A DNA stretch of 64,000 bases, taken from the NCBI GenBank assembly GCA_015231405.1, contig JADGBR010000014.1:3555-67554 (forward strand), in the 5' to 3' direction. Within the stretch, counting starts at the first letter, position 1. Every line of letters starts with the position of its first letter. The notes beneath the pieces are model-generated. The model was not told the origin of the DNA and searched no databases. It saw only the letters and a program-made list of their open reading frames with translations. The translations under genes and the position numbers were made by a program. Source of the stretch: Candidatus Omnitrophota bacterium (GTDB lineage Bacteria > Omnitrophota > Gorgyraeia > Tantalellales > Tantalellaceae). This document shows positions 13,626 to 59,163 of this stretch, piece after piece.

Positions 13626-14087
13626 TTATTCAAGCGATACGTACACCGCGATATTCTTGTCGCCCTCTTTCACATATTCCACGTATACGTCATCGCCTTT
13701 AACGAACTCGGCTAAAGAAGCCTTCCCGTCTATCTCGGTCTTCTCATTGGTCGTGAACACGTACTCAACTGTCTTTTCCTGGTCCGTCTCGGCGTCGTAC
13801 TCTTTCTCGGCTACCGTTACCGCATTCGCCGCGACATTAGTTACCTCGCCAAAAACGTAGATACGGTCATCTTCGGCGGCGCCGGTATAGGCGTCGTCTT
13901 CGGCTGCGACAGGCGCGACGGCTGCAGGTGCGACAGCGGCTGGCGCGACAGCGGCAGGCGCGGCTTTAACTGCGGGAGCGGTTGGCGCGGCCGCGGCTGG
14001 CTGGGTGGCATTATCCGCCGCATAAGCGTTCATCGAAACGGCGAGCACGAGCAACAGGAACACTACCATGATCCATTTACTCTTCAT
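13626..14087 (-). CDS. Secreted protein with an Ala/Pro-rich low-complexity linker
   Basis: Signal peptide MKSKWIMVVFLLLVLAVSMNAYA, AAPTAPAVKAAPAAVAPAAVAPAAV repeats, and an acidic beta-rich C-terminal domain. Confidence 0.6.
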   Translation of the reverse strand: MKSKWIMVVFLLLVLAVSMNAYAADNATQPAAAAPTAPAVKAAPAAVAPAAVAPAAVAPVAAEDDAYTGAAEDDRIYVFGEVTNVAANAVTVAEKEYDAETDQEKTVEYVFTTNEKTEIDGKASLAEFVKGDDVYVEYVKEGDKNIAVYVSLE

Positions 14088-19690: not shown

Positions 19691-19730
19691 CATGGACCAT
19701 GGACCATGGACTAAGGACTATGGACCATAG
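19691..19730. repeat. Tandem heptamer array CATGGAC x3, TAAGGAC, TATGGAC in the promoter region of the methyltransferase gene
   Basis: Read directly: catggaccatggaccatggactaaggactatggaccatag, 60-95 bp upstream of the ATG at 19789. Confidence 0.6.
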
Positions 19731-19788
19731 TACAATTTTATTTTTCTCTTATAAATCCACCCTGCCTGGTATATACTCTTATGTACAC

Positions 19789-20928: not shown

Positions 20929-20965
20929 TTAGTGCACGGGTTTGGAAAAGTGCACGGTGCACTAA
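20929..20965. promoter_or_regulatory. GTGCAC-containing inverted repeat TTAGTGCAC...GTGCACG GTGCACTAA between convergent/tandem genes
   Basis: A 9-bp perfect inverted repeat with a third GTGCAC copy, in the 56-bp gap between the methyltransferase stop and the kinase start. Confidence 0.3.
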
Positions 20966-20984
20966 TATTTGGTGCCTGTTTATT

Positions 20985-21983
20985 ATGAACACGCTCGACC
21001 CCGAAACAAAGTCACAATTCTCGGCGCTGACGCCCGAGGTGATCATCAAGATCGCCGAAGACGAACTAATGACTCCCCTGACCGGACTATGCAGGTCCTA
21101 TAACAGCTACATAAACCGTGTATACGAGCTGTCACGCGGGGATAAGACCGGCGTCGTGGCGAAGTTCTACCGTCCGGGAAGATGGTCTAAAGAGGCGTTA
21201 CAGGACGAACACGACTTTCTTACGGAGCTCGCCTCCGGGGATATCCCGGTCATCGCACCCCTGAAACTCCGGGATAATAAGACATTGGGGGAATTCGAGG
21301 GGATATATTTCGCTCTTTTCCCGAAAAAAGGTGGGAGGAACACCGACGAATTCCTAGAGGAAGAATGGCTGGAAATAGGCCGGCTCATCGGACGCGTCCA
21401 CGCCATAGGCGAGAAGCGCCTACCCCGAGATCGCGTAACGCTGACACCTCACCTGGCGACAAGGGACCATATTGATTTCATTTCAAGGGGGGGATTTATA
21501 CCCAAAGAGCTCCTGGCTAAATTCCGGGATACAGCGGCCGCGCTTATAGAACTGACAGGGCCGCTATTTAAGAATAAATCGCTCATAAGGATACACGGCG
21601 ACTGTCATTTCGCTAACATAATTTACAGGCCCGGAGAATCGTTCTACCTCATAGACTTCGACGACATGGCCGTGGGGACTCCCGTCCAGGATGTATGGAT
21701 GCTGCTCCCGGGATACGTTAAGAACTCAAGACATGAGCTCGCGCTTTTTATCGAAGGGTACGAAACATTCAGGGATCTCAACCGTTCTGACCTTGTTTTG
21801 ATAGAGCCCCTCAGGGCTATGAGGTATATCCATTTCACCGCCTGGTGCGCCCGCCAGGTAGCCGACGGCGGCTTTACGAATCTCGCTCCTGGATGGGGGA
21901 CTAAGACCTACTGGCAAACGGAAATATCCGACCTCGAAAAACAGATATCCCTAATAAAACAAGACCTCCCCCCAATAACCTAA
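20985..21983 (+). CDS. Aminoglycoside-phosphotransferase-fold Ser/Thr kinase, SrkA/YihE-like
   Basis: 333 aa from MNTLDPET. APH/kinase motifs HGDCHFANIIY and LIDFDD. The upstream part of the longer ORF overlaps the previous gene, so it is rejected. Confidence 0.75.
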   Translation: MNTLDPETKSQFSALTPEVIIKIAEDELMTPLTGLCRSYNSYINRVYELSRGDKTGVVAKFYRPGRWSKEALQDEHDFLTELASGDIPVIAPLKLRDNKTLGEFEGIYFALFPKKGGRNTDEFLEEEWLEIGRLIGRVHAIGEKRLPRDRVTLTPHLATRDHIDFISRGGFIPKELLAKFRDTAAALIELTGPLFKNKSLIRIHGDCHFANIIYRPGESFYLIDFDDMAVGTPVQDVWMLLPGYVKNSRHELALFIEGYETFRDLNRSDLVLIEPLRAMRYIHFTAWCARQVADGGFTNLAPGWGTKTYWQTEISDLEKQISLIKQDLPPIT

Positions 21984-23938: not shown

Positions 23939-24184
23939 GTATAACCTCCCGCGTTTAGTATTATGATACCATTTTTATATCCTTATAGCAATATTAATGA
24001 TTTTCCCGCCGTAAAAACAGTAAGGCTTAGGAATCGGCCGTTTTGGATGGATCCACGGTATTTGCTTATCGCTTGTTACGGTCTTGTGACCCGGTACATT
24101 CCACGATCCGCCTTCCCGGCTCTTTGCCTTTGCCGATAGCCACACTGCCTCGACCGGCCTTATACCGCATGTGTGCAAAAGCCC

Positions 24185-24240
24185 TCTGCAATGACGTGTA
24201 AAGAACCTCGGCGGCGCTTTGGCCGAGGTGGTTTGGCCGA
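24185..24240. repeat. Intergenic copy (3' half) of the short repeat element also found inside the giant toxin gene
   Basis: ctgcaatgacgtgtaaagaacctcggcggcgctttggccgaggtggtt aligns with 31742..31790 (ttgcaatgacgcgtataacgcctcggcggcgctttggccgaagtggtt) at roughly 85% identity. Confidence 0.6.
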
Positions 24241-24253
24241 AGGGAGAGGGGAT

Positions 24254-24290
24254 GAAAAAAAAAGGCGCCGGAGTGCGCCTCTTTTCTATT
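24254..24290 (-). terminator. Rho-independent terminator for the minus-strand toxin-antitoxin operon
   Basis: On the minus strand: GAGGCGC-actccg-GCGCCTT followed by TTTTTTTTT, immediately downstream of the antitoxin stop. Confidence 0.55.
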
Positions 24291-24307
24291 TAACGACGAT
24301 AATTACA

Positions 24308-24637
24308 TTATGCAGATGCGAGCCGGGTTTTAACTTTTGCAGGTTGTTGCTTGAAAGTTATCTCTAATTTCGCATTACATGCCTGCGCTATCTTATTCAA
24401 TAAAGTTACCGTATAGCCTTTATATGCCCCGCTTTCATACCTGGATATGGCGGATTTTGTCGTATGTATCCTTTTGGCCAGTTTCTCCTGCGACAAGTTA
24501 GATTCTTTCCGTAACTTGGCTATTTTCTCAGAGATCAACAGTTTCTGATACTCAGCCTCAAATCGGATACGGAATTTTTCGTCCTGCAATAATTCGTCAA
24601 GATATGTCATCACTTTTTTCTTATCCATAATAAACAC
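24308..24637 (-). CDS. XRE-family HTH antitoxin (HigA-like)
   Basis: 109 aa with the HTH QEKLAKRIHTTKSAISRYESG. Overlaps the upstream toxin gene by 17 nt. Confidence 0.8.
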   Translation of the reverse strand: MFIMDKKKVMTYLDELLQDEKFRIRFEAEYQKLLISEKIAKLRKESNLSQEKLAKRIHTTKSAISRYESGAYKGYTVTLLNKIAQACNAKLEITFKQQPAKVKTRLASA

Positions 24638-25010
24638 CTCGCTTGTTTCTTTCTAAATATCTGTATCTCATTTTAATCGATTTAGCCAATTCCTTCTTAT
24701 CAGACTTCTGTGTTTTCTTTCTATAACCATTGGTAATAATTATTTTTCCGCCCTCAAAATAGAAATTAAAGAACCTGTAATGCATCGGCTTGAATTCATA
24801 GATCTTCTCGTTTTTGTCCACTATCCTAAATTTATTCTCGTCATGGATCTGGCCCTCTTCCGCCATTAATTTTACCAAAGCGCCCAATTTTAATTTTATA
24901 TTTATCGGCAACGCTTTAATAAGTTCAAGCGCGGGAATATTCCCATATTCATCATAATAGAATTCAACCTGGAATCTCTCCCCCTGATAATAAATATAAT
25001 TACCTGCCAT
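24621..25010 (-). CDS. RelE/ParE-superfamily toxin, phage Gp49/HigB-like (DUF891-type)
   Basis: 129 aa. Toxin-first gene order with an XRE antitoxin. Core IYEFKPMHYRFFNFYFEGGKIIITNGYRKKTQK typical of Gp49-like toxins. Confidence 0.7.
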   Translation of the reverse strand: MAGNYIYYQGERFQVEFYYDEYGNIPALELIKALPINIKLKLGALVKLMAEEGQIHDENKFRIVDKNEKIYEFKPMHYRFFNFYFEGGKIIITNGYRKKTQKSDKKELAKSIKMRYRYLERNKRGVYYG

Positions 25011-25092
25011 TTCCTCGCCTCATAAAGGTTAGCATATTTGCTAACTATAAACAACTTTTTTTATATATCGTCTTTCAACCTGCTAACTATCT

Positions 25093-25749
25093 TCATCTTG
25101 TTTCATGCTCTTTCAAGAGAACTTCTTTTATCATCTCCACCTTTTTATTCCCGACTCCTGGTACTCCCATTAATTTCCGGGATGGCGCATTGACTACTTT
25201 TTCTATGCTTCCGAAATGGTTCAATAGTTTTAGTCCCGTCTTTTCTCCCACATAGGATACATAGGATAATCCTGTCAGGAAGTATAAGGGACGCTTTCCC
25301 GGTTTTTTGGTTTTTTTACCGTGCCTTTTTCTTACTTCCCCGGCCAAGTATTCGTTCTGCGCGGAGATCAGGCTAAGAAAGGTAGCTGTTTCTTCCGGAT
25401 CTTTTGAGAAGATAACCGGGATCTTCCATTTTACTGATATACTCACAAGTGCTCCTTTTATCGCGTTAGGATGCATGCTATTTGAAATATCCTGGAATAA
25501 CGGGTCGCCTTCGATCAATACTAGCGGCCTTTCGTAATATTTTTTTAATCCCAGGGCTTGCCTGAACAATCTCCCGTCTATAATAGAATTCACGAATTCT
25601 GTCGTTGTCTTCCTTTCGATCACTACATTGTTGTTTATAATGTAATCTCCGAAGTTCAGGTTTTCTACCGTAATATTCGCACCGATCTTATCTTTTAAGA
25701 TCTTATAAACCCCGGATTACAGTTCTCTGATATCGACTTTAATTTTCAT
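25093..25749 (-). pseudogene. ERCC4/XPF(Hef)-type nuclease with HhH2, interrupted by an in-frame TAA at codon 11
   Basis: In-frame minus-strand reading from ATG 25749..25747 gives MKIKVDIREL*SGVYKILKDKIGANITVENLNFGDYIINNNV, continuing into VIERKTTTEFVNSIIDGRLFRQ ... GVPGVGNKKVEMIKEVL. This has the ERCC4 motifs GDY, ERK and DGRL, plus a C-terminal HhH. The stop TAA sits at 25719..25717. The listed ORF 25093..25623 begins at an internal GTG and lacks the GDY motif. Confidence 0.65.
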
Positions 25750-26392
25750 AACGTTATTTTCCCCTTCATTATTATAGACACTTTTTTATTCGATAATGTT
25801 TCAAACAATTTCTACCTTTTGGCCTAACACCCAGTTGGAATGCGGCACAACACATTCACCAAGAGCGCACTTACTGACGAACCGTTCCAGAAAAACAGAC
25901 GGCTGCGTTTACTTGTATTGGCGCGGCCGTTCAGGCTGCGCCCGGCTCCGGACGCGGCGTAGACCAAACGGCTTCGCCGGGGCTCAAAACAGCCTGCCAT
26001 ATAGCGGGCTGTTTTGAGCGGGATTAAGCACAGAACAACCTTTGAGGATAACCGAACTATAAGCTATGTTCAACGATTACCCGCCAGCGAAGTTAGCATA
26101 ATGCTCGTTAGCGGATGGCCCTCCGTAGCCGAATAATATCAAAATAGTTTGGCGAAGGAGGGACGTCGGATAACGCGCATTATGTTAAAGTTTGGTGTTC
26201 GGGGCTAGCTAAGGAGCCGGGGGAACCACTCACGAAAGTATCGCAGACACTGACTCACGAACCACCCATGAGCGACACGGCGGAACCATTATAGGAATAC
26301 CCGGATTTGTTACATATCTTATTTCTTCGTATTGAGTTCAATACTGTGTTTGCATGCAGTGTGTTCTCGTAAGAAGCGACAACAAACCCTGA

Positions 26393-26674
26393 TCAGGCTA
26401 TACGTATCTCAAGTCGCCTGCCTAACGCTTCAGCGGTTTTCTCAAGAGTCGACAATTTGATATCTTCGGCGTGGTTCTCCAGGCGGGAAATAGCTCCCTT
26501 GTATGTGTTCATCTTCTCGGCAAGCTCCTTCTGAGTAAGGCCTTCCTTCTCCCGGGCCATCCTCAACATGACACCGATCTTGAATTCTTTATACCCACGG
26601 TCGAAGGTCTTAGCGAACCTTTTGCTCCTCTTCTTCCTCTTGTCTATATATCTCTGCAGGTCGCTGTTCCTCAT
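26393..26674 (-). CDS. XRE-family HTH antitoxin (HigA-like)
   Basis: 93 aa with the [24 protein letters not shown], downstream of a RelE-like toxin gene. Confidence 0.8.
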
Positions 26675-26703
26675 TATAATTTACTCCCGTTTTGTATTAA
26701 TGT

Positions 26704-27045
26704 TTATCTGCTAAAATATTCTTCTATCATTTTCTCAGCTCTCTCGATCTCTTCCCTCGGGATCTTATCCGTCTTCTTTACCATACCGTGCGTAAGAATG
26801 ATATCATTACCCTTAAAAAAGCCGAACAACCGGTAAATATTCGAACCCGACTTTATCCTGCACTCCCAGATGTCCTTATCGAGCTTCTTATAATATTGCC
26901 CGGGGATAGGATGTAACTCCTCCAGTATTTTCAATACCCACAATATCTTCTCTGCCGCTTTATCGCTTAATGTATCTAAAAATGTCTCTACGGGTTTCTC
27001 CCCGGTCTTTTTTATATAAAAGATTACTTTTCTCACCATGAGCAT
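26704..27045 (-). CDS. RelE/ParE-superfamily toxin (HigB/Gp49-like)
   Basis: 113 aa. WECRIKSGSNIYRLFGFFKGNDIILTHGMVKKTDKIPREEIERA, the typical RelE/HigB core. Toxin-first operon with an XRE antitoxin. Confidence 0.7.
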   Translation of the reverse strand: MLMVRKVIFYIKKTGEKPVETFLDTLSDKAAEKILWVLKILEELHPIPGQYYKKLDKDIWECRIKSGSNIYRLFGFFKGNDIILTHGMVKKTDKIPREEIERAEKMIEEYFSR

Positions 27046-27247
27046 AGGTTAACATACAAGTTAACCTTATGCAACTTTCTTATGTGCGTTATTGGTGCGT
27101 TATTGGGGTCAGACCTCATCTTTACACAAAATATTTTAGCATAGTTTATGATGAAAATAATTTGAAACATTTTTTATGGTTTTGGTGTCTCTATAGGTAT
27201 GGGTTGAAAGCATACCTGATCAGCATTTATAACCAAGGAGGGTTTTC

Positions 27248-28198
27248 ATGGCAAGGCCATTACGCATAGAGTACCCGGGGGCTTTATATCATGTCACATC
27301 CCGTGGCAATGAACGAAAGAACATTTTAATTACTGACGATGATAAATCCGTTTTTCTTGATATTCTGACAACTGCGGCCAATCGGTTCAAGATCGTATTA
27401 CATGCTTATTGCTTAATGACCAACCATTATCATTTTCTCATTGAAACAGCAAAAGCCAACTTAAGCAAATGCATGCAGTATATCAATTCTTCATATACAA
27501 CCTATTTCAACCGGGACAGGAAAAGATCAGGGCATCTTTTTCAGGGAAGATATGGAGCATTGCTTGTTGAGGAAGAAAGCTATTTGATAAAATTATCTCA
27601 ATATATACATTTGAACCCAATAAGAGCAAAGTTAGCACGTCATCCCGCTGATTACAAATGGAGCAGTTATAGATTTTATAAGCATTGCGAGCCCGGCAAG
27701 CCTGATTTTCTCGATCTGCAAAAGACCTTAGGGTATTTCAATGATGACCGTGGATTATACGCCGAATATATTGAGGAGGCTATACAGTCTAAAATAGTGG
27801 ATTTTTTACCGGAAGCTTTTGCCGGCTTGATATTGGGCAGCCAGGATTTTATCGACCAAATTAAAAAGAAATATGTGGACAAAAGAAAGAATCCGAGGGA
27901 CCTCCCTTCGCTCCGGAAGATAAACAAGACGGTCATTTGCCCTGATAAAATAATTGAAATAATCAACGCCAACTCGAAGGATATCCAAAATAAATATCGT
28001 ATAAAATTACTGGTTCTTTTCCTGAGGAAATATACAGATTTGACTTTGGCCGAGATCTCTAAAACCATAGGTACCGGAAAAACACCACCGGCTATCAGCA
28101 ATATATTCTATAGATTGGATAATGACCGAAACAAGAATGCCCATCTCAACGAACTGATAAATATTCTAGAAACAGAAATGTGTAAAGATGAGGTCTGA
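27248..28198 (+). CDS. HUH (Y1) transposase of the IS200/RayT (COG1943) family with a long C-terminal extension
   Basis: MARPLRIEYPGALYHVTSRGNERKNIL ... CLMTNHYHFLIET (HuH motif HYH) ... catalytic Tyr region. 316 aa, longer than minimal TnpA. No obvious terminal hairpins identified. Confidence 0.7.
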   Translation: MARPLRIEYPGALYHVTSRGNERKNILITDDDKSVFLDILTTAANRFKIVLHAYCLMTNHYHFLIETAKANLSKCMQYINSSYTTYFNRDRKRSGHLFQGRYGALLVEEESYLIKLSQYIHLNPIRAKLARHPADYKWSSYRFYKHCEPGKPDFLDLQKTLGYFNDDRGLYAEYIEEAIQSKIVDFLPEAFAGLILGSQDFIDQIKKKYVDKRKNPRDLPSLRKINKTVICPDKIIEIINANSKDIQNKYRIKLLVLFLRKYTDLTLAEISKTIGTGKTPPAISNIFYRLDNDRNKNAHLNELINILETEMCKDEV

Positions 28199-28424
28199 CC
28201 CCATTACGGACCCCATTACGACCCATCATTTTTACTCTATCAACTCCAAAAAAAATACTTATCACTCTTTATTATCCTAACAGAATAGGCAAAAAATTTT
28301 TGTTGCTTACTGCTTCAGATGTTTTTGATTCATTTTTGTCTTTCTACTCCTTTGCAATTATTCATCTAGTGCAAAAATGAGGTTTGACCCTCTTACTTCT
28401 ACAGCAGCGTCATGTGCAACTGTT

Positions 28425-28886
28425 CTATAGTCCTTTCAACATTTCTTCGCTTCTCTTTCTTGTGTACTCAACCAGCTTTTCTCTATTCGCAAAATAGTCT
28501 GAAGCTTTAAAAAGACTTAGTATTTTGGGGAAATACTTTGTTGCCAATACGGAATAATTTTCCAACTGCTTACGTTGTCTTTCTCCATAATCCTCAATTC
28601 CTTCATCAAACTCACATCTTTTCAAATCATTTTTATCAATACCCAAATATTCAAATAATAGTTTTAACCCAAATGTACTTGATTTCATCTGAATCGAACT
28701 AATTCCTATTAATATTTCACCTCTATCGGTATTAATATTTACATATATGTTATTATTTTTATAAAGAGTGCAGGAATTCCCAAAATTTTCTTTATCGACT
28801 GCATAAGACACAAATTCAAAATTGTATTTTTTAAATATATCAGAAAAATATTTGTTAATTTCATCTTTTAAAATAAAATCTGACAT
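28425..28886 (-). CDS. Putative immunity protein for the adjacent polymorphic-toxin C-terminal tip
   Basis: 153-aa cytoplasmic ORF beginning 15 bp after the stop of the giant toxin gene, on the same strand. It lies in the same AT-rich segment as the toxin tip. No recognised family. Confidence 0.55.
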   Translation of the reverse strand: MSDFILKDEINKYFSDIFKKYNFEFVSYAVDKENFGNSCTLYKNNNIYVNINTDRGEILIGISSIQMKSSTFGLKLLFEYLGIDKNDLKRCEFDEGIEDYGERQRKQLENYSVLATKYFPKILSLFKASDYFANREKLVEYTRKRSEEMLKGL

Positions 28887-28900
28887 AAATTCCCCTTTTG

Positions 28901-31900
28901 TTACTTAATTAACCAGAAATAATTTTTCCCTTCTCGCATTACAATTTTATATTCTTTACTAAGCAAGTAATCAATTTCTTTTCGCAGATATTTACCAGCT
29001 AAAGCATAAGGTGTAGTGACATAAAACGCACGGGTTTTTAACATCGCTCTATCTAAGAACTTTCTGTTCATCTCCCAAAGTTCATCTTCATTCATTATTT
29101 TAACAAATTTCTTCCATATTTTATCAGGAATACAAAAATAATTTGCATTTATTCTTTTTGCAACTTCTATATATTTATATTTACCACTATTTATCCAAAT
29201 CCCGTAATTACTGCCCAGAACAGTAATATCTTTCCCAATATTTCTATATGATTTTAGCCCATTTCCGGCTGCTTTTATAGCATTTAATGGCACCACTGTT
29301 CCAACTGCTAATAATGATAAAGCTGCTTCATCTCTCTTTCCTCTGGATAAATAAATTAAACCATTTATTGCGTCAATTGTATCACCAACTCCCGGAACAA
29401 CTCCAGCCCAATCTAAATATGACTGCATTACGTCAAATGAACTGTCAAATATTGCTTCATTAATGCCACCGGCGTTAAATGACACATAACCGATTTTATA
29501 ATTAGCAGGCGATAAATACCCTTCCGATGTTAATATGCTTTCGGCTGACTCATAGCTATTATTAAAAACATCTTCCGGCTTAACTGATACTCCGTTTATT
29601 GTTAATTCATAATCCTCCCCTGCCAGCCTGTTGATCTCGGCAATCATTCCATCTTCCGTCAAGATGACCTTATCGTTTATCTTTACTTCAACACCTTTGC
29701 TAATGGCAAGCTTAGCGCTTTCGATGAGCGATACCCTTCCCGTCGCGTCCATCATCGAATCCCAGGACGAACCGAACATTTCGCTGAAGGCGTAGTTGTC
29801 GCCGTCTACTTTCAGGTCGACGATTTTGCCGGTATTCGGATCGTAGACTGTTGTGTAATCGATGAATTGGCCGGCATCGTAGGATAATTCTGATTCCGTT
29901 ATTTCCAGGATTTGATAATTGGCATCATAGAGAGTTACCGTGCCGTCTTCGCTCGTTACTCTTGTGTTGCCGTTATCCAGGCACTCGACTTTCGTGGATG
30001 TATAGCTATTAATGCCTTTCGTTATTTCCGTTTTTGTTATTTTCCCGGCATCTGTCTCTACTATATTCATCGTTGTAGCGTTATACGTAAAAACAGCCTT
30101 GTTGCCGGTATTAATGTCGATTAAGGTTATTTGTTTTGTGCCGTCGGAGAGGGTTTTCTCGCTTTCGACGGCTCCTTGGTATTTATCCCGTAATTTGTTT
30201 AATTCGGCATTTATATTTTCATAGTGTATTTCACGTATTGCTATTTCATTCTGCATGTACTGCCTTGTCCCATCTAAACCGGCGCCTATCACGCTCGATA
30301 CGGTCATCTGGAGCATATTGCTGTACCATTGTTCACCATATTTGTTTTCGAGCGCGTTCATAGTTTCCGTGGATATAACCTGTGAGGCTGTATTAAAGAA
30401 GACTTCAGTCGCGAACATGGCGGTCGAATTCAGAATTTTCATATCAAAAGCTGGGTTGGCGAAGGCGTTTACGGGCATTAGGGTGATGGCGGCGGCTAGG
30501 CCTATGCCTAGTTTACTTAGCCAGTTGTCTGATTTGGAGATCTGTTCCATGGCATAGTTTGAGATTCCGCTGGTTATCATGCCGCCGAGGTAGTTTCTGA
30601 CGGCGTCGCCTAGTAAGGCTTTTGGGGCGAACTCAGTACTGATCCAGGGGTTAAGGGTATTCTTTAACCAGTTTCCGGCGGATTGGAAACCTTCCGCGGC
30701 CTGGCGGCATAGGGTCATTACTCCGCCGATCGCTTTTTGGCCGATTGATATTAAATTGTCCGTAATGCCCAGAGTTATCTGGCCCAGGGTTCTTCCGACT
30801 GCGCTGAGACCAGTCCAAATTCCCTCCATCATCTGGCCTGCCATACCTGCGATCGGCGCGGCGACGAATGCCGTAGCGGCGGATAAGAATATTGACGCTA
30901 CTCCCATTCCCATTATTGTCATCGCCTGGCCGTATTGGCCGTAGCAGATGGCTGTGGCCATGTTTGTTACGGTGTTCATGATCGGGTATGCTAGGGTTCC
31001 GCCCGATATCACCGACATTACTGATCCCACCACCAACGCGCCGATCGCGCCGGCTACTCTTCCCCATTTGCCTTCCTGGGCGGCGTATTTGATGGCGTTG
31101 ATCATTTGGACTACGGGTTGGATGATGTTGGTTACTATTTTTTTGACGGCTTTTACTATGCCTTCGAAGATCTGGGTTACTTTTTTCCAGAGTTTGTCCC
31201 ACCAGCCGGCGGCTTTTATGTCTAGGAGTTGGGTGTCGGTTAGGCGGTTTTTGTAGTCGCTGCGGGCGGTGGAGAGGGTGGTGCCTTCGTAGTTTTTCTT
31301 GAATTCGGTTAGGGGTATTTGTTTGGTTTGTTCGATGTTGTTTATGTAGCTGTTGGTGACTTTGATGTGGGTTATGGTGCCGGTTGTGTCGCGGATTACT
31401 CCGGTTACGGTTAGGAAGTGGGTGCCGTTGTAATGGACTATTATTGGGATTGCTTCGTCGCCTTCGGCTCCTCGCAATGACGGGGCGTCGGCTCCTTGCA
31501 ATGACGAGGCTTGACGGATGAAATCATCAAATGTGTATTTTGAACCGTAAACGTCTAGGCCGTGTTTTTGGGATACTTTTTTTAGGGCGTACATGGTTAG
31601 GAGGAGCTGGCCTTGAGTCTCGGAGGTGATGGCGCCGGTGATTAGGTCGACGAAGATGAGTTGTTGTAACAGGTAGTTCATTATTGACAGAGATTGCTTC
31701 GTCGCTTCGCTCCTCGCAATGACGAGGGCGGCTTCGTTGGCTTGCAATGACGCGTATAACGCCTCGGCGGCGCTTTGGCCGAAGTGGTTGTCCTGGGTTT
31801 TTAGCCGGGTTATGATGATTTGGATGTCTTCTTTTGTTATGTTGACGAGGAGCGACGGGTCGATGTCGTAGCCGCGCTCTTTCAGATATGCCGGCTTATC

Positions 31901-53838: not shown

Positions 53839-54070
53839 TCATCGCTCCTTAATTATTGTGATTTTTGACAGGAGAAAAACAATTAAAGGATTTATAAATG
53901 TTTGTAATTTGTTCTTGTGTATGAAGCGCGGTATCTCTACCGCCGGAAGACACGAAGACAGAAAAACTGTTACAAAAGATTTTTCCCAACCCTTATTTCC
54001 TGTGATTATATCGGAAGGCTTTCTAAACTTTTACAATTTTACGACAAGTACGGCGTTTTGTCAAGCAGTT

Positions 54071-57000
54071 TTACGCGAAACTGAGAACTTTCAGCATCAT
54101 CTGGTTGAGCCTTACCCGCTCCCTATAATTGTGTATAACCGCTTTATCGAGAATGATCTGATACTTGCGGGGATCACTCCTAAGCTCTTCAACTGAGATC
54201 GGTATGTTCTCATCCTCGGCAGTAAGAAGTTCGTATAGTCCCCTGAGTGCTTTATCGTCATGGTTAAGATAAGCAATACCGGCAAACACCATTGCTCCGT
54301 ACTGCACCAAGTCTTCGTCCGAATATGCTTCGCTATCTTTTAGATCGGCGTAAATAACCCTGGCATTATGGTTTTCCAGTCGTTTTTTCATGAATTGACG
54401 GAGTTCATCGAACGGCATTATGTGGACCACGTTATCTTTTTCCGCGCTTTCCGCCGTAGTAGCGGCTTCCTGGGCCAATTTGGCAATATCATCCACTATC
54501 TCGACCGAATATCGTCCGCTCATTAAAAGCCCCGCGAATCTCGATAATAAAAGCCGCTGAGTGCTTCCACCGGCGTACCCTCCCCATATCTTTATCACCT
54601 TAAGCGGCTCGCCGTCTCCCGGGATTTTCATCCCCCGGGCGATCCTCGCCGTTTCATTCATTTTGAACGTCTCTCTTCCGGAGGCTAACCTGTCCTCATA
54701 CTGCTCATTTCCCTCGACAGCCTCAAGAACAGCATCATAGTGAAGAGGTTTCTCGATCATAGCCCGGATATTCTTAGACCTATCAGGATGGAACTCGATG
54801 CTCTGTAAAAGAGACACCCCAAGAGCGGACACGACCTCTTTAAGCCCTTCGATGCCGTCTTTCTCCATCTTCTTGATCTCTTCCTTAATGTAAAAGACCG
54901 CGTTAACGGCACGACCCGGAGAGAACATCATCCGGTAGGTCTGTGCTATTTCCCTGTCGGTAAACTTTTCCATTTCCAGGGGATTGACGATCATCGTCCC
55001 TTCCGTTAACATCTCCCCCAGGATCGCTTTTTTCAGGAAAATAATGGCTTTTCTGGTATCGTTTTTCACCAAATAATGCCTCGCCATGGCAACGTCTTTT
55101 ATGCCCTGAATATCAACTGAATTGATACCCCTGCCGCTCATCTTCTTCTTTTCAAGCGCGGAAGTCATGATCCCCGTGATATCGTCGAACTCTTTATCCG
55201 TCGCGGGATATCCCGGTGCCGGAAGCCCGGAACGTTCGGTTATCCATCTCGCCGACTCGTTTATCATTGTGCGCCTGGCGCTCGAATACTCCTCGAGAAT
55301 AATTTCTTCCATACTCCCGGTCAGGCTTAGCCTGCCTTGTTCCATTTTCGTTTTCTTTTCCTGAACGATATTCCCGGGATCGTCCCAGAGGATGTTATCG
55401 TCCGACAATGCGACCGCGGCGAATCCCGCCACCTCTTTTCGCATGTTATTGGTAATGGCTTTGAACACTATCCGCATTAACAAACGCCTCAGCTTTTCTT
55501 TAGACCCCATCTCACCGGCATCGGACGAAAAATGCAGGACCTCGCGCATCATCTTGAGATATTTTTCGGAATGGACTGTGGGGTCATCCGGCGAAAGGAA
55601 AGAGACCAGCTCGAAAAACACTTTAGGCGTCAGGCTCTCGCCCCACGCGACACCATCCGGGAACCTTAACGCGTACTGGGCTTCCGCGGAAAGCGCGTGC
55701 CAGCCGTTTTCCCTGATCTCCTTCAGCCTTTTCAGATCCGATATATACTCATCCTCGATAGCACGCCTCTGGGCATCCTTTTCGCCTGTCCTCGGCGAAC
55801 GCAAAGCCGCTTCCTTATCGGCTATTATGATCCGAACTTCGGGATTATACCGCGTAGCAAGGTCCATTATCTCTTTCGAGGCGTCCCGGTTTTTAAAGAT
55901 AACGTCGGTGACTATCGTGTCCGGCGGCACTGTTTTCCAGTACGCAATGGCTTCGGCTTCTGATCTTACGTAATAAACGTTATACGCGTCGCTGGTCCTC
56001 CGCCTCACATAAATGCCGAGATCTTTCGCGCCGCTCGCTTCCTCCCCTATGACATACACGCTTGGCAGTCCTTCTTTATGCCCCGAAAAATCGGCTTTGT
56101 ATTGTATTTCACCGATCGAGACAAAATGATCGATCTTCTGCCCAAGCCATTGGGCGAGACACGCGAATAAAAGAACGGGGCCCTCGTCCTTGGACTTTGG
56201 GATATTGATAAGACGGCCCTCCCCGCAAGCCGGCAAATTTTTCACCCTGACCGCGCCGGATGAAACAGGCTCCGTCTCGAGTTTTGTTACGACTCTAGTC
56301 TCTCCTGCCGCCGTATGGCCGAATTTCTCGGCAAGAAGTACCAGACTCATCGGATCAAGCCCGGAACATATCGCCTTTAAGGGGATGCGCTCGAACGCCT
56401 CGACCCCGGCCATATCCTCAAGATTCCCTTTCCCGGTAAGCGCGTCGCACAAAACGGCGTCGAACCTTTCCGCTGGGTCGTCCATACCTTTACTCATTAA
56501 AGTTAAACCTTCTTCGTAATCAGAGACCGCAGTTACAGCGATGTTCTGGAAATTTTTTTCTATCAGGCGTTTGACTAATTGCCGGTCGATCAATGAATCA
56601 TCCACAAGCAATACCCGCAGCCTGTCGGGCGCTTTCTCGTTAAAATATATCCCCGTATCCATCTTCTTCCCTTCTTTCTTCCCGTAATCCTCGATGAACC
56701 CGGTAACTCTCCTCAACTTTTTCATCCATTCAACCTCCCAGCTGGAAGGCAAGAGCGGAAAGCTCAGCACTGAACCAAGCTCTTTCAGCGTGTCTATTAC
56801 ATACTTCTCGTTCCTTTCGTCGTTCACCTCGGTCTCGGAAGACCCGGTCGGGTTAGCCTTATGGATCTCCGTTAAAGCTCTTTTCACGAGCACACGTACG
56901 TCCTCTTTTTCCTCCTTCGTCCTTTTCTCAGGATCGATATAGCTGTACAGGAACGGCATTTTCGCAAGGCCCATGATGCTGAACACTTGCTCGGCCACTT

Positions 57001-58951
57001 TCATGACAGGCGCTTTCTCCACATCTCCGTTCCTCTCGACCAGCGTCCTTATCACATGAAAAAAATAATTGCTCTGGCCGTCGCCTATCTCGTCAAACTC
57101 GGCCTCGATCTCCGCCGATCTCTTAGCCATCCCCTCCTCTAGGCTGATCGGCTCCGGCTCAGCTCTAGCATAAAACGTTCCCTCCAGCCCGTCGCTGAAA
57201 TATGTAACGTCTTCCCGGGATATCCAGACGCCGGGTATTACCTTCCCTTTTTTATCCAGAGGCCCCTCAAAATATCTGTAAGGCGCATAATCGATATTCT
57301 TGAGCAGTCCGTTCTTGAGCGCCGGGGAATTGCAATAACAGAATTCCCCGGAGGCTACCCTTTTCTCGATCAAAGTTATGTTGTGCGCCTGCCTCGAGCC
57401 CTGTTCGGGGTCCACCAGGACCTTCGCTTTTGTCTCTTTTTTATCGGCCATATAGCTCGCCACATCGTGTTTTACCATGATGTAATCCTCAAGCGTACAA
57501 GTCTCGTCAAATTTTCCCATTTCATCTTTTGATATGTTCCCGCTAAAGAGGATGACCTTCCCCGAATATCCGCTGGACTTGTTCGTCCCCGGGGCTTTTT
57601 CCGTCGCCCCCAGAGCCACGTGAGTGCTGGCGATCTCAACCTTCTTCTTTTCCAAGATCTCCTCGAGAAGTTTGTCGCTTTTATCGACCGGTTCTTTCTT
57701 GAAATCACCGACTATCGGCCTTATCTGTATTACGTAGAGCTTGCCCCCGTGAAAGCCCCACTCTATGTCGAGCGGCACACCTATCTCATTCTCGAGGGCC
57801 TCCGCGACGGCGAAAACTTTGTTCGCCTGGCCTTCGTTTATAGGGCTTATCTTATCCCCTACTCTTATCTTTCCGATGACGGCTCTCATCTCTTCAGGGT
57901 TGTCCTCGGCGCTGATCTCTTTACCGTTCAGCCTTACGGAGTGAGGCATGGAGAGAAAAGAAGGCGCGTACCTTTTCAAACGGCCCGTGGATTTATTGTA
58001 AAGGAAATGGCATGTATTGGCATGGGAGCCCCTTACGGCCATGTCGGCGTCCCCGAAAACGCATTCTATCGAGTTGTACCCGTAATAATTCGTTTTAGTC
58101 GTCCCGGACGCCTCAAAATGCATGAAAGGCTGGACGATCATTGCTATGCCTTTCTTTTTATCGAGCTTGTTCGGTACCCCGGCTATCTTATTCTTCGACT
58201 GATTCTGCTTTATCCACATCATCTCTATTGCCTGGTCCAATATCTCCCTTACCCCCTCAACCACCGATCTTTCGTCCTTTTTTCTGGGCGAGATGAACAC
58301 CCCGGCAAGGTTCTGTTCATACCCGTCCTCGTCGGCCCCGCTGGATCTTACGATTATGTCCCCCCTTAAACTTTTCGTCTTCCTCCTGATAAGTTCAGCC
58401 AGCTCCTCCGATACCGTCATCTTCTTTTTTATATATTCCAGCATTAGCAACGACATGCCTTGAATTCCCGTTTCTGTATCTTCTTCCGAAATATCACCTG
58501 TCCCCTGCAAAAGCTCCGCCGACATGATCTCATCGACGTAACGATTTCCATCTTTGACCAGGTCTTCATTATCTTCAAGATACTTTTCCCAGATATCCTC
58601 CATGGTGAACCTCACCGAGCCCGGATGCCGGAAATGAAGTAATTTTTTAAGTTTAGAATATTTTTTCGATAAGAACTCCAACAGAATATCCCATGCGCCT
58701 TTACCGCCGTATTTCGGAGCATTTGTCTTTTCAAATTCGTCCCGTATCTTCTTGTGCCCCTTTTTCAGGTATTCCTCGGCGAATTGATCGGGTATACCCC
58801 GTTCAGCCGCGTTCCATATGGCAAGAGTATCTTTGTTCGTATCGGAAAATAATAAGTCCGAGTTGAGGCCTACCGTATCCTGAAATGAGAAATTCCAGAA
58901 CAAAATAGTAGTAATTATTGTTGAAATAACCTTGCTATTTTTCTTTTTCAT
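54071..58951 (-). CDS. Giant (1626 aa) multidomain protein: a signal-anchor, a PPDK-type nucleotide-binding domain, a PEP-utilising phospho-His domain, two degenerate receiver-like domains and a large helical C-terminal region
   Basis: PPDK_N motifs IIVRSSGADEDGYEQNLAGVF, GIAMIVQPFMHFEASG and LDIEWGFHGGKLYVIQIRPIVG. Swivel-domain-like GKVILFSGNISKDE...VLVDPEQGSRQAHNITLIEKRVASG. Receiver-like RVLLVDDSLIDRQLVKRLIE...DAVLCDALTG. Confidence 0.8.
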   Translation of the reverse strand: MKKKNSKVISTIITTILFWNFSFQDTVGLNSDLLFSDTNKDTLAIWNAAERGIPDQFAEEYLKKGHKKIRDEFEKTNAPKYGGKGAWDILLEFLSKKYSKLKKLLHFRHPGSVRFTMEDIWEKYLEDNEDLVKDGNRYVDEIMSAELLQGTGDISEEDTETGIQGMSLLMLEYIKKKMTVSEELAELIRRKTKSLRGDIIVRSSGADEDGYEQNLAGVFISPRKKDERSVVEGVREILDQAIEMMWIKQNQSKNKIAGVPNKLDKKKGIAMIVQPFMHFEASGTTKTNYYGYNSIECVFGDADMAVRGSHANTCHFLYNKSTGRLKRYAPSFLSMPHSVRLNGKEISAEDNPEEMRAVIGKIRVGDKISPINEGQANKVFAVAEALENEIGVPLDIEWGFHGGKLYVIQIRPIVGDFKKEPVDKSDKLLEEILEKKKVEIASTHVALGATEKAPGTNKSSGYSGKVILFSGNISKDEMGKFDETCTLEDYIMVKHDVASYMADKKETKAKVLVDPEQGSRQAHNITLIEKRVASGEFCYCNSPALKNGLLKNIDYAPYRYFEGPLDKKGKVIPGVWISREDVTYFSDGLEGTFYARAEPEPISLEEGMAKRSAEIEAEFDEIGDGQSNYFFHVIRTLVERNGDVEKAPVMKVAEQVFSIMGLAKMPFLYSYIDPEKRTKEEKEDVRVLVKRALTEIHKANPTGSSETEVNDERNEKYVIDTLKELGSVLSFPLLPSSWEVEWMKKLRRVTGFIEDYGKKEGKKMDTGIYFNEKAPDRLRVLLVDDSLIDRQLVKRLIEKNFQNIAVTAVSDYEEGLTLMSKGMDDPAERFDAVLCDALTGKGNLEDMAGVEAFERIPLKAICSGLDPMSLVLLAEKFGHTAAGETRVVTKLETEPVSSGAVRVKNLPACGEGRLINIPKSKDEGPVLLFACLAQWLGQKIDHFVSIGEIQYKADFSGHKEGLPSVYVIGEEASGAKDLGIYVRRRTSDAYNVYYVRSEAEAIAYWKTVPPDTIVTDVIFKNRDASKEIMDLATRYNPEVRIIIADKEAALRSPRTGEKDAQRRAIEDEYISDLKRLKEIRENGWHALSAEAQYALRFPDGVAWGESLTPKVFFELVSFLSPDDPTVHSEKYLKMMREVLHFSSDAGEMGSKEKLRRLLMRIVFKAITNNMRKEVAGFAAVALSDDNILWDDPGNIVQEKKTKMEQGRLSLTGSMEEIILEEYSSARRTMINESARWITERSGLPAPGYPATDKEFDDITGIMTSALEKKKMSGRGINSVDIQGIKDVAMARHYLVKNDTRKAIIFLKKAILGEMLTEGTMIVNPLEMEKFTDREIAQTYRMMFSPGRAVNAVFYIKEEIKKMEKDGIEGLKEVVSALGVSLLQSIEFHPDRSKNIRAMIEKPLHYDAVLEAVEGNEQYEDRLASGRETFKMNETARIARGMKIPGDGEPLKVIKIWGGYAGGSTQRLLLSRFAGLLMSGRYSVEIVDDIAKLAQEAATTAESAEKDNVVHIMPFDELRQFMKKRLENHNARVIYADLKDSEAYSDEDLVQYGAMVFAGIAYLNHDDKALRGLYELLTAEDENIPISVEELRSDPRKYQIILDKAVIHNYRERVRLNQMMLKVLSFA

Positions 58952-59163
58952 ATTTTACAGTTTTTGTTTTCACCAGATTGACATTATAGCACAAAAAAGT
59001 AAGAAATGCCAAGGAAATTTGCTCATTCTGGAATACACTATGTTAACTTGCTTTTTAATAGTTGACTGGATTGCTTTTTTGGGAATACCGAGCTTATACG
59101 CAGCAATGTCGGGTTTTTTGCTCCGCTATATTGAATGTGCAAAAAACACTTTTTCTTTTTTGA

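What the first reader, a model, noticed from the sequence alone, without database searches (positions are those of the whole stretch)
54071..58951. Second giant PPDK-family kinase-like protein fused to degenerate receiver domains
The 1626-aa protein has a PPDK_N-type nucleotide-binding domain (DIEWGFHGGKLYVIQIRPIVG), then a His swivel-like domain, then two receiver-like domains whose acidic pockets look degenerate, then a long helical C-terminus. It heads the giant-gene block. Two paralogous giant PEP-utilising-family proteins in one 64-kb window is striking. They could be regulatory or substrate-modifying kinases tied to the secreted giants.
Basis: partly seen in the sequence, partly recalled or inferred. 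Interest (0 to 1): 0.55.

Follow-up and report, generated by a model that had tools for sequence, protein, structure and literature searches.

The report
Dikinase core fused to receiver domains
This 1626-residue protein from an uncultured Omnitrophota bacterium joins an ATP-driven "dikinase" phosphorylation engine to receiver domains normally served by histidine kinases, and it shares a secretion-type leader and a previously undescribed tail domain with about 90 groups of other large proteins, so it may be a new kind of phosphorylation relay, though its function is untested.

Summary
The ORF is real. It is intact and identical to NCBI HQL30_07155 from a Candidatus Omnitrophica MAG.

**Confirmed**
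- A PPDK_N ATP-grasp domain (Pfam 49 bits, cut-off 27). Its closest structural match is rifampin phosphotransferase.
- Receiver (REC) domains.

**Plausible but unproven**
- A swivel phosphohistidine domain with an invariant His523. The predicted order of strands and helices fits. Every sequence-profile test is negative.

**Corrected**
- REC1 keeps its acidic pocket (D784, D785, D836).
- The "second REC" and the "long helical C-terminus" are one family-conserved terminal REC, split by a 333-residue insert.
- The last 200 residues are a confidently predicted alpha/beta domain with no solved relative.

**New**
- That tail domain ends about 90 representative proteins of up to 4580 residues. Most start with a Sec-like leader followed by an xL(A/S)PW motif.
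- Their middle parts are cytoplasm-type modules: sigma-70, GNAT, radical SAM, HAD.
- REC arrays of 2 to 12 copies occur in every dikinase-type member and in no other N-complete member. Of 81 copies, 93% keep the phospho-acceptor Asp.

**Not supported**
- A link to the neighbouring giant genes. None of nine homologue neighbourhoods contains one.
- Close paralogy with the 2087-residue protein.

**Best guess (about 0.4)**
- ATP phosphorylates His523, which passes the phosphate to Asp in the attached receivers.

The parts
54071..58951 (-). Whole gene, 1626 codons plus stop; NCBI HQL30_07155
58814..58951 (-). N-terminal leader, aa 1-46: MKKKNSK (positive), then a 16-residue hydrophobic stretch, then the TLAIW motif at 42-46. 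Sec-signal or signal-anchor-like
   Evidence: Sequence; the pattern is shared across the superfamily. No SignalP or DeepTMHMM was run
57677..58729 (-). ATP-grasp nucleotide-binding domain (PPDK_N type), aa ~75-425. Motifs: GGKG 82-85, RSS 202-204, ED 208-209, DIEWG 395-399, IQIRP 408-412
   Evidence: Pfam E 5.6e-13; profile hit to RPH in the PDB at 3e-10; Foldseek RPH 3e-12, 5hv6_A TM 0.68; invariant columns
57167..57640 (-). Putative phosphohistidine swivel domain, aa ~438-595, with invariant His523 in GSRQAHN
   Evidence: Invariant in the first 5 members and seen by eye in most of the 17-20 later sequences; one row (P0027) lacks the motif. Order of secondary-structure elements in the AF2 model. 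Sequence-profile tests negative
56672..57142 (-). Helical domain, aa ~604-760, ending in the conserved SFPLLPSSWE motif (730-739)
   Evidence: AF2 secondary structure, pLDDT about 80-88; conserved P732, L733, P735. No family match
56252..56626 (-). REC1, aa ~776-900: D784, D785, D836 (a 5-aa insertion follows), S863-G864, K890
   Evidence: Pfam 28.5 bits, N-terminal half only; PDB 8pdc receiver alignment; family REC profile; MAFFT alignment with CheY. The C-terminal half has no statistical support
55781..56071 (-). Terminal REC, N-terminal part (beta1-alpha4), aa 961-1057: E970, E971, D1016, A1044/D1045
   Evidence: Terminal-REC profile positions 6-102, 47 bits
54782..55780 (-). 333-aa insert in the alpha4-beta5 loop of the terminal REC, aa 1058-1390
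   Evidence: Collinear two-piece profile hit; score rises to 76 bits when the insert is spliced out. Homologous inserts in P0040 and P0073, BLASTP 1e-16 to 1e-22. Structure not modelled
54692..54781 (-). Terminal REC, C-terminal part (beta5-alpha5), aa 1391-1420, with the EKP motif (K1401)
54074..54685 (-). Conserved C-terminal alpha/beta domain ('C-module'), aa 1423-1626
   Evidence: Exhaustive profile search: 93 representatives, always at the C-terminus. AF2 pLDDT 91.8, pTM 0.90. No Pfam, PDB or BFVD relative
58983..59012 (-). Sigma-70-like promoter match (TTGGCA-18-TATAAT, 11 of 12, TG-extended), 32 nt upstream of the start codon
   Evidence: consensus match only
54036..54064 (-). Sigma-70-like promoter match (TTGACA-17-TAAAAT, 11 of 12) between the target's stop codon and the downstream TPR gene
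   Evidence: consensus match only

Best explanation
The gene encodes a member of a rare family that is almost confined to Omnitrophota.

**Build of the family**
- A Sec-type N-terminal leader.
- A dikinase-type catalytic core: a PPDK_N ATP-grasp domain followed by a mobile phosphohistidine domain carrying His523. It has no PEP/pyruvate-binding or rifampin-binding domain.
- A helical domain.
- A variable array of receiver (REC) domains.
- A special terminal REC.
- A ~200-aa C-terminal alpha/beta domain that many unrelated large Omnitrophota proteins also carry.

**Proposed mechanism**
1. The ATP-grasp domain binds ATP and transfers the beta-phosphate to His523. This is dikinase chemistry, as in PEP synthase and rifampin phosphotransferase.
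2. The swivelling His~P domain donates the phosphate to the conserved Asp of the attached receivers. In this protein those are D836 and possibly D1016.
3. The protein would therefore be a His-to-Asp relay that needs no HisKA/HATPase_c histidine kinase.
4. The leader and the C-terminal domain set location or assembly, not chemistry.

**Status of each step**
- Shown: the domain identities, the motif conservation, and the REC-dikinase coupling.
- Inferred: autophosphorylation on His523, transfer to Asp, and localisation.

The stated confidence refers to this mechanism. Confidence in the architecture is about 0.9.
For: **ATP-grasp domain is intact**
- Pfam match, PDB profile hit to RPH, Foldseek hits to RPH, PEPS and PPDK.
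- All nucleotide and Mg motifs are invariant, even against distant PPDK_N proteins.

**His523**
- Invariant in the five first members. By eye it is kept in most later sequences, though one (P0027) lacks the motif.
- It sits in a strand-loop-His-helix element directly after the ATP-grasp domain.

**No third substrate domain**
- None is detectable.

**REC arrays are coupled to the dikinase core**
- Within the C-module superfamily they occur in 14 of 14 dikinase-type members. They occur in none of the N-complete members with other cargo.
- Three further genomic members carry 5-9 copies.

**REC residues are conserved**
- 75 of 81 REC copies keep the phospho-acceptor Asp.
- 62 of 70 keep the Mg-binding acidic residue.
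- 25 of 54 fully aligned copies keep the whole D/D/S-T/K set.
- Purely structural pseudo-receivers would not be expected to retain these.

**Array size**
- Up to 12 receivers sit in one chain. That is hard to serve with separate cognate kinases.

**The target itself**
- REC1 keeps D784, D785 and D836.
Against: - No experiment supports the mechanism, and I found no precedent for transfer from a dikinase His~P to a REC Asp (one search found no paper).
- Every sequence-profile test of swivel-domain homology failed.
- The target is the weakest family member for this mechanism.
  - It has only two receivers.
  - REC1 has insertions next to D836.
  - The terminal REC has E-E in place of D-D, has lost the T87 position, and is split by a 333-aa insert.
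- The N-terminus looks like a Sec signal. If the protein is exported, ATP would not be available unless it acts inside another cell.
- Geometry between H523 and D836 could not be measured.
Confidence: 0.4

Rival explanations
1. This is a conventional dikinase with an unknown external substrate. His523~P phosphorylates a small molecule, glycan or protein bound by the helical domain (aa 604-760) or supplied in trans, as in rifampin phosphotransferase, PigC/RedH or glucan water dikinase. The receivers are regulatory inputs phosphorylated by separate histidine kinases, or they are oligomerisation scaffolds.
For: - Every characterised relative phosphorylates a non-protein substrate. The closest structure is RPH, and the NCBIfam hits are to PEPS, PigC, RedH and RPH.
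- A conserved helical domain follows the swivel region.
- About half of the REC copies lack K109 or the S/T residue.
- The target's own receivers are reduced.
Against: - No substrate-binding domain can be recognised.
- The helical domain is poorly conserved apart from one motif.
- It does not explain why arrays of up to 12 receivers with intact Asp travel strictly with the dikinase core.
Confidence: 0.33
2. This is an exported effector or surface protein. The Sec-like leader and the shared C-terminal domain would route a whole superfamily of cytoplasm-type enzyme modules out of the cell. The layout is analogous to type IX secretion cargo: signal peptide, passenger, C-terminal domain. The dikinase-REC protein would then work on the cell surface or inside a host or prey cell, using that cell's ATP.
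For: - 44 of 64 long superfamily members have an N-terminal hydrophobic stretch. Of these, 40 have net positive charge before it, 37 have neutral or negative charge after it, and 26 have an AXA-like site before the conserved L(A/S)PW.
- The C-module always lies at the extreme C-terminus.
- Cargo is diverse: sigma-70, GNAT, radical SAM, HAD, M23.
- Published work predicts similar 'metabolic' domains of Omnitrophota giant proteins to be extracellular, and proposes a predatory or symbiotic lifestyle (10.1101/2023.11.21.568195; PMC10066038; 10.64898/2026.06.07.730766).
Against: - No signal-peptide predictor was run.
- The target's own leader has no clear AXA site.
- P0009 carries a helix-turn-helix DNA-binding region in place of the leader.
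- The C-module is alpha/beta, not a known secretion-signal fold.
- No secretion genes are linked to it in the nine neighbourhoods.
- Radical SAM and sigma-70 modules outside a cytoplasm are hard to rationalise.
Confidence: 0.15
3. This is the first reader's reading: a regulatory or substrate-modifying kinase functionally tied to the adjacent giant secreted proteins (TPR/porin-like, FecR giant, RHS giant), paralogous to the 2087-aa protein.
For: The gene has the same strand and lies next to the giant block. The giants carry FecR, RHS and F5/8-C domains typical of surface proteins.
Against: - A promoter-like site lies between the target and the block.
- None of nine homologue neighbourhoods has such genes.
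- There is no sequence similarity to the 2087-aa protein.
Confidence: 0.07
4. This is a pseudoenzyme or scaffold: catalytically inactive domains kept as a structural platform.
For: The target's receivers are partly degraded and interrupted. There are large unannotated helical regions.
Against: All ATP-grasp catalytic motifs and His523 are conserved, mostly invariantly, across roughly 36-50% identical homologues. That conservation argues for retained chemistry.
Confidence: 0.05

Closest known systems
Rifampin phosphotransferase (RPH-Lm, PDB 5HV1/5FBS) and the PEP synthase / PPDK dikinases
   Same: The PPDK_N ATP-grasp domain has all nucleotide-binding motifs. A His-bearing mobile domain is the probable phosphoryl carrier. 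These are the best sequence-profile and structural matches.
   Different: - There is no rifampin-binding domain and no PEP/pyruvate TIM-barrel domain.
- The His domain follows the ATP-grasp domain directly, as in PEPS and PPDK. In RPH it is C-terminal.
- The His domain does not match PF00391.
- Downstream lie receivers and a new C-terminal domain.
- An N-terminal Sec-like leader is present.
Hybrid histidine kinases / phosphorelays (HisKA + HATPase_c + REC)
   Same: An ATP-using module with a phospho-His is covalently linked to receiver domains that keep the acidic pocket and the acceptor Asp.
   Different: - There is no HisKA, HATPase_c or HPt domain.
- The ATP module is an ATP-grasp dikinase.
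- Up to 12 tandem receivers occur.
- Phosphotransfer is untested.
Omnitrophota giant multi-enzyme proteins ('Archaeovorins' and related; West-Roberts et al. 2023 bioRxiv; 2026 bioRxiv 10.64898/2026.06.07.730766)
   Same: They come from the same phylum. PPDK_N, REC, radical SAM, HAD and GNAT domains are strung on long polypeptides with N-terminal signal or transmembrane segments. The localisation paradox is the same.
   Different: - The target is 10 to 100 times shorter (1.3-2.9 kaa).
- It has a defined, conserved architecture.
- By term search, neither the conserved C-terminal domain nor the L(A/S)PW leader appears in those papers.
Type IX secretion cargo (signal peptide + passenger + conserved C-terminal domain)
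   Same: The overall logic of a shared N-terminal signal, a variable passenger and a conserved domain at the extreme C-terminus.
   Different: - The C-domain here is a ~200-aa alpha/beta fold, not a ~90-aa beta-sandwich.
- There is no T9SS context.
- The passengers are cytoplasm-type enzymes.
- This is an analogy only.
Alpha-glucan water dikinase (GWD)
   Same: It belongs to the same dikinase superfamily. This comparison is relevant to the other window protein (6910-13173), which has the GWD order of domains (pHis domain then ATP domain) and a CBM48/alpha-amylase neighbour.
   Different: The target has the opposite domain order, no carbohydrate-binding module and no GWD1_pHisD match.

Membership tests
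PEP-utilising / dikinase superfamily (PPDK, PEPS, RPH) | ATP-grasp nucleotide-binding domain (Pfam PF01326) with the RSS, ED, DxEW and QxRP motifs | tested here: met
   49.3 bits against cut-off 27; motifs invariant; Foldseek RPH E 3e-12, isolated ATP domain TM 0.68
PEP-utilising / dikinase superfamily (PPDK, PEPS, RPH) | Mobile phosphohistidine domain (PF00391 or PF22973) with a catalytic His | tested here: inconclusive
   No Pfam hit. hhalign and hmmsearch against 5 canonical swivel sequences are negative. However, His523 is invariant in the first five members, and the AF2 secondary-structure order with strand-loop-His-helix fits
PEP-utilising / dikinase superfamily (PPDK, PEPS, RPH) | Third, substrate-binding domain (PEP/pyruvate TIM barrel PF02896, or the rifampin-binding domain) | tested here: not met
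   No hit in Pfam or NCBIfam. All NCBIfam equivalog scores are far below their cut-offs (48 against 883)
PEP-utilising / dikinase superfamily (PPDK, PEPS, RPH) | ATP-dependent autophosphorylation with transfer of the beta-phosphate | not testable with these tools
   Needs biochemistry
Response-regulator receiver domain (PF00072) | Profile match at or above the gathering score | tested here: inconclusive
   Target 28.5 against 30.2 bits, N-terminal half only. Homologues score 43-100 bits. A family-derived REC profile hits the target at 779-871 (E 9e-07) and 968-1080 (E 2.5e-15)
Response-regulator receiver domain (PF00072) | Conserved D12/D13, D57, T/S87 and K109 (CheY numbering) | tested here: inconclusive
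   REC1: D784, D785, D836; S863 and K890 rest on an unsupported MAFFT alignment. Terminal REC: E970, E971, D1016, T87 position lost, K1401. Family: Asp in 75 of 81 copies, full set in 25 of 54
Response-regulator receiver domain (PF00072) | Phosphorylation on the conserved Asp | not testable with these tools
   Needs biochemistry
Histidine kinase / hybrid kinase | HisKA (DHp) and HATPase_c domains | tested here: not met
   No such Pfam hits at E <= 0.1
Omnitrophota 'C-module' superfamily (defined here) | ~200-aa alpha/beta domain at the extreme C-terminus matching profile A2/A4 | tested here: met
   Residues 1423-1626, 290 bits and 192 bits with the broader profile; 93 representatives
Omnitrophota 'C-module' superfamily (defined here) | N-terminal positive-hydrophobic leader followed by xL(A/S)(P/I)W | tested here: met
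   MKKKNSK, VISTIITTILFWNFSF, then TLAIW at 42. Whether it is cleaved, and its topology, were not tested
Close paralogue of the window's 2087-aa PPDK_N protein | Significant pairwise or family-profile similarity and the same domain order | tested here: not met
   BLASTP best E 1.7; N-module profile E 0.43; opposite domain order
Known anti-phage defence proteins (PADLOC) | Match to any PADLOC model | tested here: not met
   0 families

The most novel reading that the evidence does not exclude
The leader (A-x-A | L-A/S-P-W) and the 200-aa C-terminal domain mark the cargo of an undescribed Omnitrophota export or sorting route. That route would carry cytoplasm-type enzyme modules out of the cell and possibly into host or prey cells. 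The modules include sigma-70-like factors, GNAT, radical SAM, HAD and this dikinase-receiver relay. The target would then be a secreted, self-contained ATP-to-His-to-Asp phosphorelay effector.
Probability: 0.12. Interest if true: 0.9.

Novelty: new variant of a known kind. Interest (0 to 1): 0.62.

Why it matters
**A new route for phosphorylating receivers**
- If the dikinase core phosphorylates its own receivers, two-component receiver domains can be loaded without a histidine kinase.
- A 1.3-2.9 kaa protein family would make this testable in vitro.

**A handle on the Omnitrophota localisation puzzle**
- The shared leader and C-terminal domain define a compact, alignable superfamily.
- It poses the same unsolved question as the 10-150 kaa Omnitrophota giants: why do ATP-, SAM- and DNA-dependent modules sit behind secretion-type signals?
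- These smaller proteins are far more tractable for settling topology and function in a phylum with no cultured representatives.

**Caveat**
- All functional statements here are inferences from sequence and predicted structure.

Tried and rejected
1. **Shared C-terminus with the 2087-aa protein.** I suspected this by eye. hhalign probability was 0.1% and neither C-module profile hit it. Rejected.
2. **C-module as a degenerate REC.** hhalign against the family REC profile gave probability 0.8%. Foldseek gave only generic flavodoxin- or Rossmann-like hits with E >= 0.015 and TM <= 0.37. Not supported.
3. **Sequence-level proof of the swivel domain.** hhalign under four settings and hmmsearch with five canonical swivel sequences were all negative.
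4. **Operon or co-occurrence with giant genes.** Nine homologue neighbourhoods were checked and none has them.
5. **Defence-system membership.** PADLOC found nothing. Some homologues sit next to integrase, reverse transcriptase or toxin-antitoxin genes, but not consistently.
7. **Genome scan with the broad C-module alignment.** The N-module scan found only 5 loci among 185,579 species genomes. That scan is pattern-limited, so 5 is a lower bound.
8. **Literature.** I found no paper joining dikinase, phosphohistidine and receiver domain. None describes the leader or C-module in Omnitrophota.
Full report
**1. The observation**

The window holds an uninterrupted ORF at 54071-58951 on the minus strand. 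It encodes 1626 aa. The product is identical to NCBI protein HQL30_07155 of a 'Candidatus Omnitrophica bacterium' MAG.

- Pfam places PPDK_N at residues 179-425 (E 5.6e-13; 49.3 bits, cut-off 27).
- Pfam gives a sub-threshold Response_reg match at 780-856 (28.5 against 30.2 bits, first 64 of 111 profile positions).
- NCBIfam gives only weak partial hits to PEP synthase, PigC/RedH and rifampin phosphotransferase models, all far below their equivalog cut-offs.

Several details needed correction.

**2. The family**

A first search of 5.8 billion proteins found only four relatives (P0002-P0005, 1321-2239 aa). They are 36-39% identical over the aligned parts.

The alignment shows three zones:
- a strongly conserved N-terminal ~560 aa (mean column identity 62%);
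- a middle of variable length;
- a conserved C-terminal ~200 aa.

Further searches extended the family.
- A profile of the N-module found five more partial members. All that carry names are Omnitrophica or Omnitrophota.
- The exhaustive C-module search added nine full-length members.
- A pattern scan of 185,579 species genomes found five loci. Four are Omnitrophota MAGs and one is a bin labelled Planctomycetia. Three of these give full-length genes of 2103-2791 aa.

The family is rare and essentially restricted to Omnitrophota.

**3. The catalytic core**

*ATP-grasp domain.* A profile of the N-module hits the Listeria rifampin phosphotransferase structures (5HV1, 5FBS; E about 3e-10) through the ATP-grasp part.

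In an alignment that also holds three distant PPDK_N proteins, the invariant columns are exactly the dikinase nucleotide and Mg motifs:
- R202-S203-S204
- E208-D209
- Q274
- G391, P393, D395, E397-W398
- Y406, Q409, R411-P412

An AF2 model of residues 40-780 has pLDDT 78 and pTM 0.78. Its best Foldseek matches are rifampin phosphotransferase (E 3e-12; isolated ATP domain TM 0.68), PEP synthase (1.7e-9) and PPDKs (1e-8).

*Putative swivel domain.* Directly after the ATP-grasp domain, residues ~438-595 are predicted as strand, strand, helix, strand, helix, strand, a loop carrying His523, helix, strand, helix, then hairpins. This is the order of elements in the swivelling phosphohistidine domain.

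His523 lies in G-S-R-Q-A-H-N. The motif resembles the canonical G-G-x-T-S-H-A. It is invariant in the five first members and, by eye, kept in most later sequences, though one (P0027) lacks it.

Sequence tests do not support the homology. Pfam finds no PEP-utilizers match. hhalign and hmmsearch against a small canonical set are negative. I therefore call this domain 'probable, not proven'.

No PEP/pyruvate-binding or rifampin-binding domain is present.

A helical domain (~604-760) follows and ends in a conserved PLxPxxWE motif.

**4. The receivers**

It finds 2 to 12 tandem REC-like domains per protein. Pfam independently gives up to 100 bits in homologues.

Among the 81 copies:

| Feature | Copies retaining it |
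|---|---|
| Phospho-acceptor Asp | 75 of 81 (93%) |
| Second acidic residue | 62 of 70 aligned |
| (S/T)(G/A/S) motif on beta4 | 49 of 74 |
| Lys (K109 position) | 44 of 62 aligned |
| Complete set | 25 of 54 fully aligned |

The target has the fewest receivers.

- *REC1* (776-~900) keeps D784, D785 and D836. A 5-residue insertion follows D836. A MAFFT alignment places S863-G864 and K890 at the T87 and K109 positions, but only the N-terminal half is statistically supported.
- *The 'second receiver'* (961-1057) is the N-terminal three-quarters of a conserved terminal REC type that precedes the C-module in every member. Its beta5-alpha5 segment, with the invariant EKP (K1401), lies at 1391-1420.
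- The terminal-REC profile hits these two pieces collinearly. It scores 76 bits when residues 1058-1390 are spliced out, against 47 + 15 bits otherwise.
- Homologous inserts sit at the same site in P0040 and P0073 (BLASTP 1e-16 to 1e-22).
- The terminal REC has E970-E971 in place of D-D, keeps D1016, and has lost the T87 position.

The 'long helical C-terminus' is largely this insert, which I did not model.

**5. The C-terminal domain and the superfamily**

The last ~200 residues match nothing in Pfam or in PDB sequences. They are unrelated to the C-terminus of the 2087-aa protein.

An exhaustive profile search of 1.84 billion representatives found 93 proteins (84 below 1e-10). The match always lies at the extreme C-terminus, in proteins of up to 4580 aa.

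AF2 with a 47-sequence alignment gives a confident alpha/beta model (pLDDT 91.8, pTM 0.90). It has no significant match in the PDB (best E 0.015, TM 0.29) or in BFVD. It has no profile similarity to REC.

*The leader.* Most N-complete members begin with a positively charged stretch and a hydrophobic helix, followed at residues 20-45 by xL(A/S)(P/I)W. This motif often comes right after an A-x-A-like site, for example ...HALA-PW or ...AQA-LSPW. Counts among 64 long members:
- 44 have the hydrophobic segment;
- of those, 40 have net positive charge before it;
- 37 have net charge of zero or below after it;
- 35 have the motif.

The target has MKKKNSK, VISTIITTILFWNFSF, then TLAIW at 42.

*The cargo.* Between the leader and the C-module, other members carry sigma-70 regions 1.2-4, GNAT, radical SAM plus LMW phosphatase, a glucosamine-6-P isomerase-like domain, HAD, peptidase M23 or HEAT repeats.

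Within this superfamily, REC arrays occur in 14 of 14 dikinase-type members. They occur in none of the N-complete members with other cargo.

**6. Context**

- Downstream on the same strand lie a TPR/porin-like gene, a 2850-aa FecR protein and a 4834-aa RHS/F5-8-C protein.
- An 11-of-12 sigma-70-like site lies just upstream of the target. Another lies between its stop codon and the TPR gene. These are consensus matches only.
- Nine homologue neighbourhoods show housekeeping genes, or integrase, reverse transcriptase and toxin-antitoxin genes. None shows giant genes.
- The other PPDK_N protein of the window (6910-13173) has no detectable similarity to the target. It has the opposite domain order, GWD1_pHisD then PPDK_N, and is an orphan in the database. 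It lies downstream of a CBM48/alpha-amylase gene, separated by one ~150-aa ORF (13626-14087).
- It is therefore a different kind of dikinase, not a close paralogue.

**7. Mechanism**

*Shown:* an intact dikinase-type ATP site; a conserved His in the expected place; no third substrate domain; and receivers that keep their phospho-acceptor chemistry and travel strictly with the dikinase core.

*Inferred:* ATP phosphorylates His523, with the beta-phosphate retained as in PEPS and RPH. His~P then donates to the receiver Asp residues in cis. This would be a kinase-independent His-to-Asp relay (confidence about 0.4).

*Main rival (about 0.33):* a conventional dikinase acting on an unknown substrate, with the receivers as regulators or scaffolds.

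*Localisation is unresolved.* The leader looks like a Sec signal, which conflicts with ATP-dependent chemistry unless the protein acts in another cell. One partial member (P0009) has a helix-turn-helix region in place of the leader. Two preprints raise the same paradox for Omnitrophota giant proteins. They list PPDK_N, REC, radical SAM, GNAT and HAD among the frequent domains of such proteins, behind signal or transmembrane segments (10.1101/2023.11.21.568195; 10.64898/2026.06.07.730766).

**8. Novelty and verdict**

- The dikinase core is a known kind.
- I did not find its fusion to receiver arrays in the literature searched. The same holds for the split terminal receiver, the C-terminal domain, and the leader/C-module superfamily with cytoplasm-type cargo.
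- I rate it a new variant of a known kind.
- The superfamily offers a more radical possibility, export or sorting of enzyme modules, which the evidence does not exclude.
The link to the neighbouring giants and the paralogy claim should be dropped.

Noticed in passing
window 6910-13173 (-), with neighbour 14269-16401 (-): The other PPDK_N protein (2087 aa) has the domain order of glucan water dikinase: GWD1_pHisD at 1381-1487, then PPDK_N at 1529-1840. It lies downstream of a CBM48 + alpha-amylase (isoamylase-like) gene, with one ~150-aa ORF (13626-14087) between them. This suggests a bacterial glucan-phosphorylating dikinase. It is an orphan in the 5.8-billion-protein database. NCBI starts it 40 aa later, which removes a leader ending in TLSPW.
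   Followed up: partly
proteins P0020, P0033, P0035, P0037, P0054: Large proteins of 800-1700 aa carry a Sec-like leader + ALAPW, sigma-70 regions 1.2/2/3/4 in the middle, and the same C-terminal domain as the target. Sigma-factor modules behind a secretion-type signal are unexplained.
   Followed up: partly
window 55780-54782 (aa 1058-1390); P0040 aa 1142-1439; P0073 aa 2423-2743: A homologous ~300-aa insert domain occupies the alpha4-beta5 loop of the terminal receiver in three family members. It has a conserved motif GW.ALSE...WG...(F/Y)E(L/I).(T/S)FL.P..PT and no known family.
   Followed up: partly
window 28901-53838 (-): A block of three genes: a 508-aa TPR protein with a beta-barrel-porin-like C-terminus (weak BBP2_2/EpsL hits), a 2850-aa protein with N-terminal FecR domains, and a 4834-aa protein with an RHS repeat and F5/8 type C (discoidin) domains. 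The 4834-aa protein has QLAPS at residue 44.
   Followed up: partly
window ~24000-30000: GC content drops to 0.35-0.42, against about 0.50 elsewhere. The drop lies just 3' of the 4834-aa gene's end and includes several short ORFs with no family match. It may be foreign or intergenic-rich DNA.
   Followed up: no
L007 1564-8865: A family member of 2433 aa has the N-module at 263-762, six receivers and the terminal REC. It then has ~570 further residues and no C-module, so this variant has a different tail.
   Followed up: partly
L009 9869-18244: A complete family member (2791 aa: leader, 9 receivers, C-module) lies on a 110-kb contig of a bin labelled 'uncultured Planctomycetia'. This is either a mis-binned or mis-classified Omnitrophota contig, or a rare occurrence outside the phylum.
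   Followed up: no
P0009 (887 aa, partial): In this member about 440 aa with a helix-turn-helix (HTH_3/HTH_31) region and no hydrophobic helix precede the dikinase module. It still has GLAKW at the position of the leader motif. This argues for a cytoplasmic location in at least this case.
   Followed up: partly
L004 5474-12110; L005 7086-9931 and 18524-19052: Two closely related family genes (P0002, P0014) sit beside reverse transcriptase, RNase H, integrase, resolvase and ParE/Phd genes. The family gene may lie at the edge of mobile elements in that lineage.
   Followed up: no
L006 9006-9548: In one MAG the family gene (P0007) lies downstream of lepA and signal peptidase I (Peptidase_S26), separated from the peptidase gene by one small ORF. 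This is probably incidental, but notable given the Sec-like leader.
   Followed up: no
window 19699-21983 (+): The RlmL-like methyltransferase ORF (19699-20928) and an APH-family phosphotransferase ORF (20793-21983) overlap by 136 nt as listed. The start of the second is probably further downstream.
   Followed up: no
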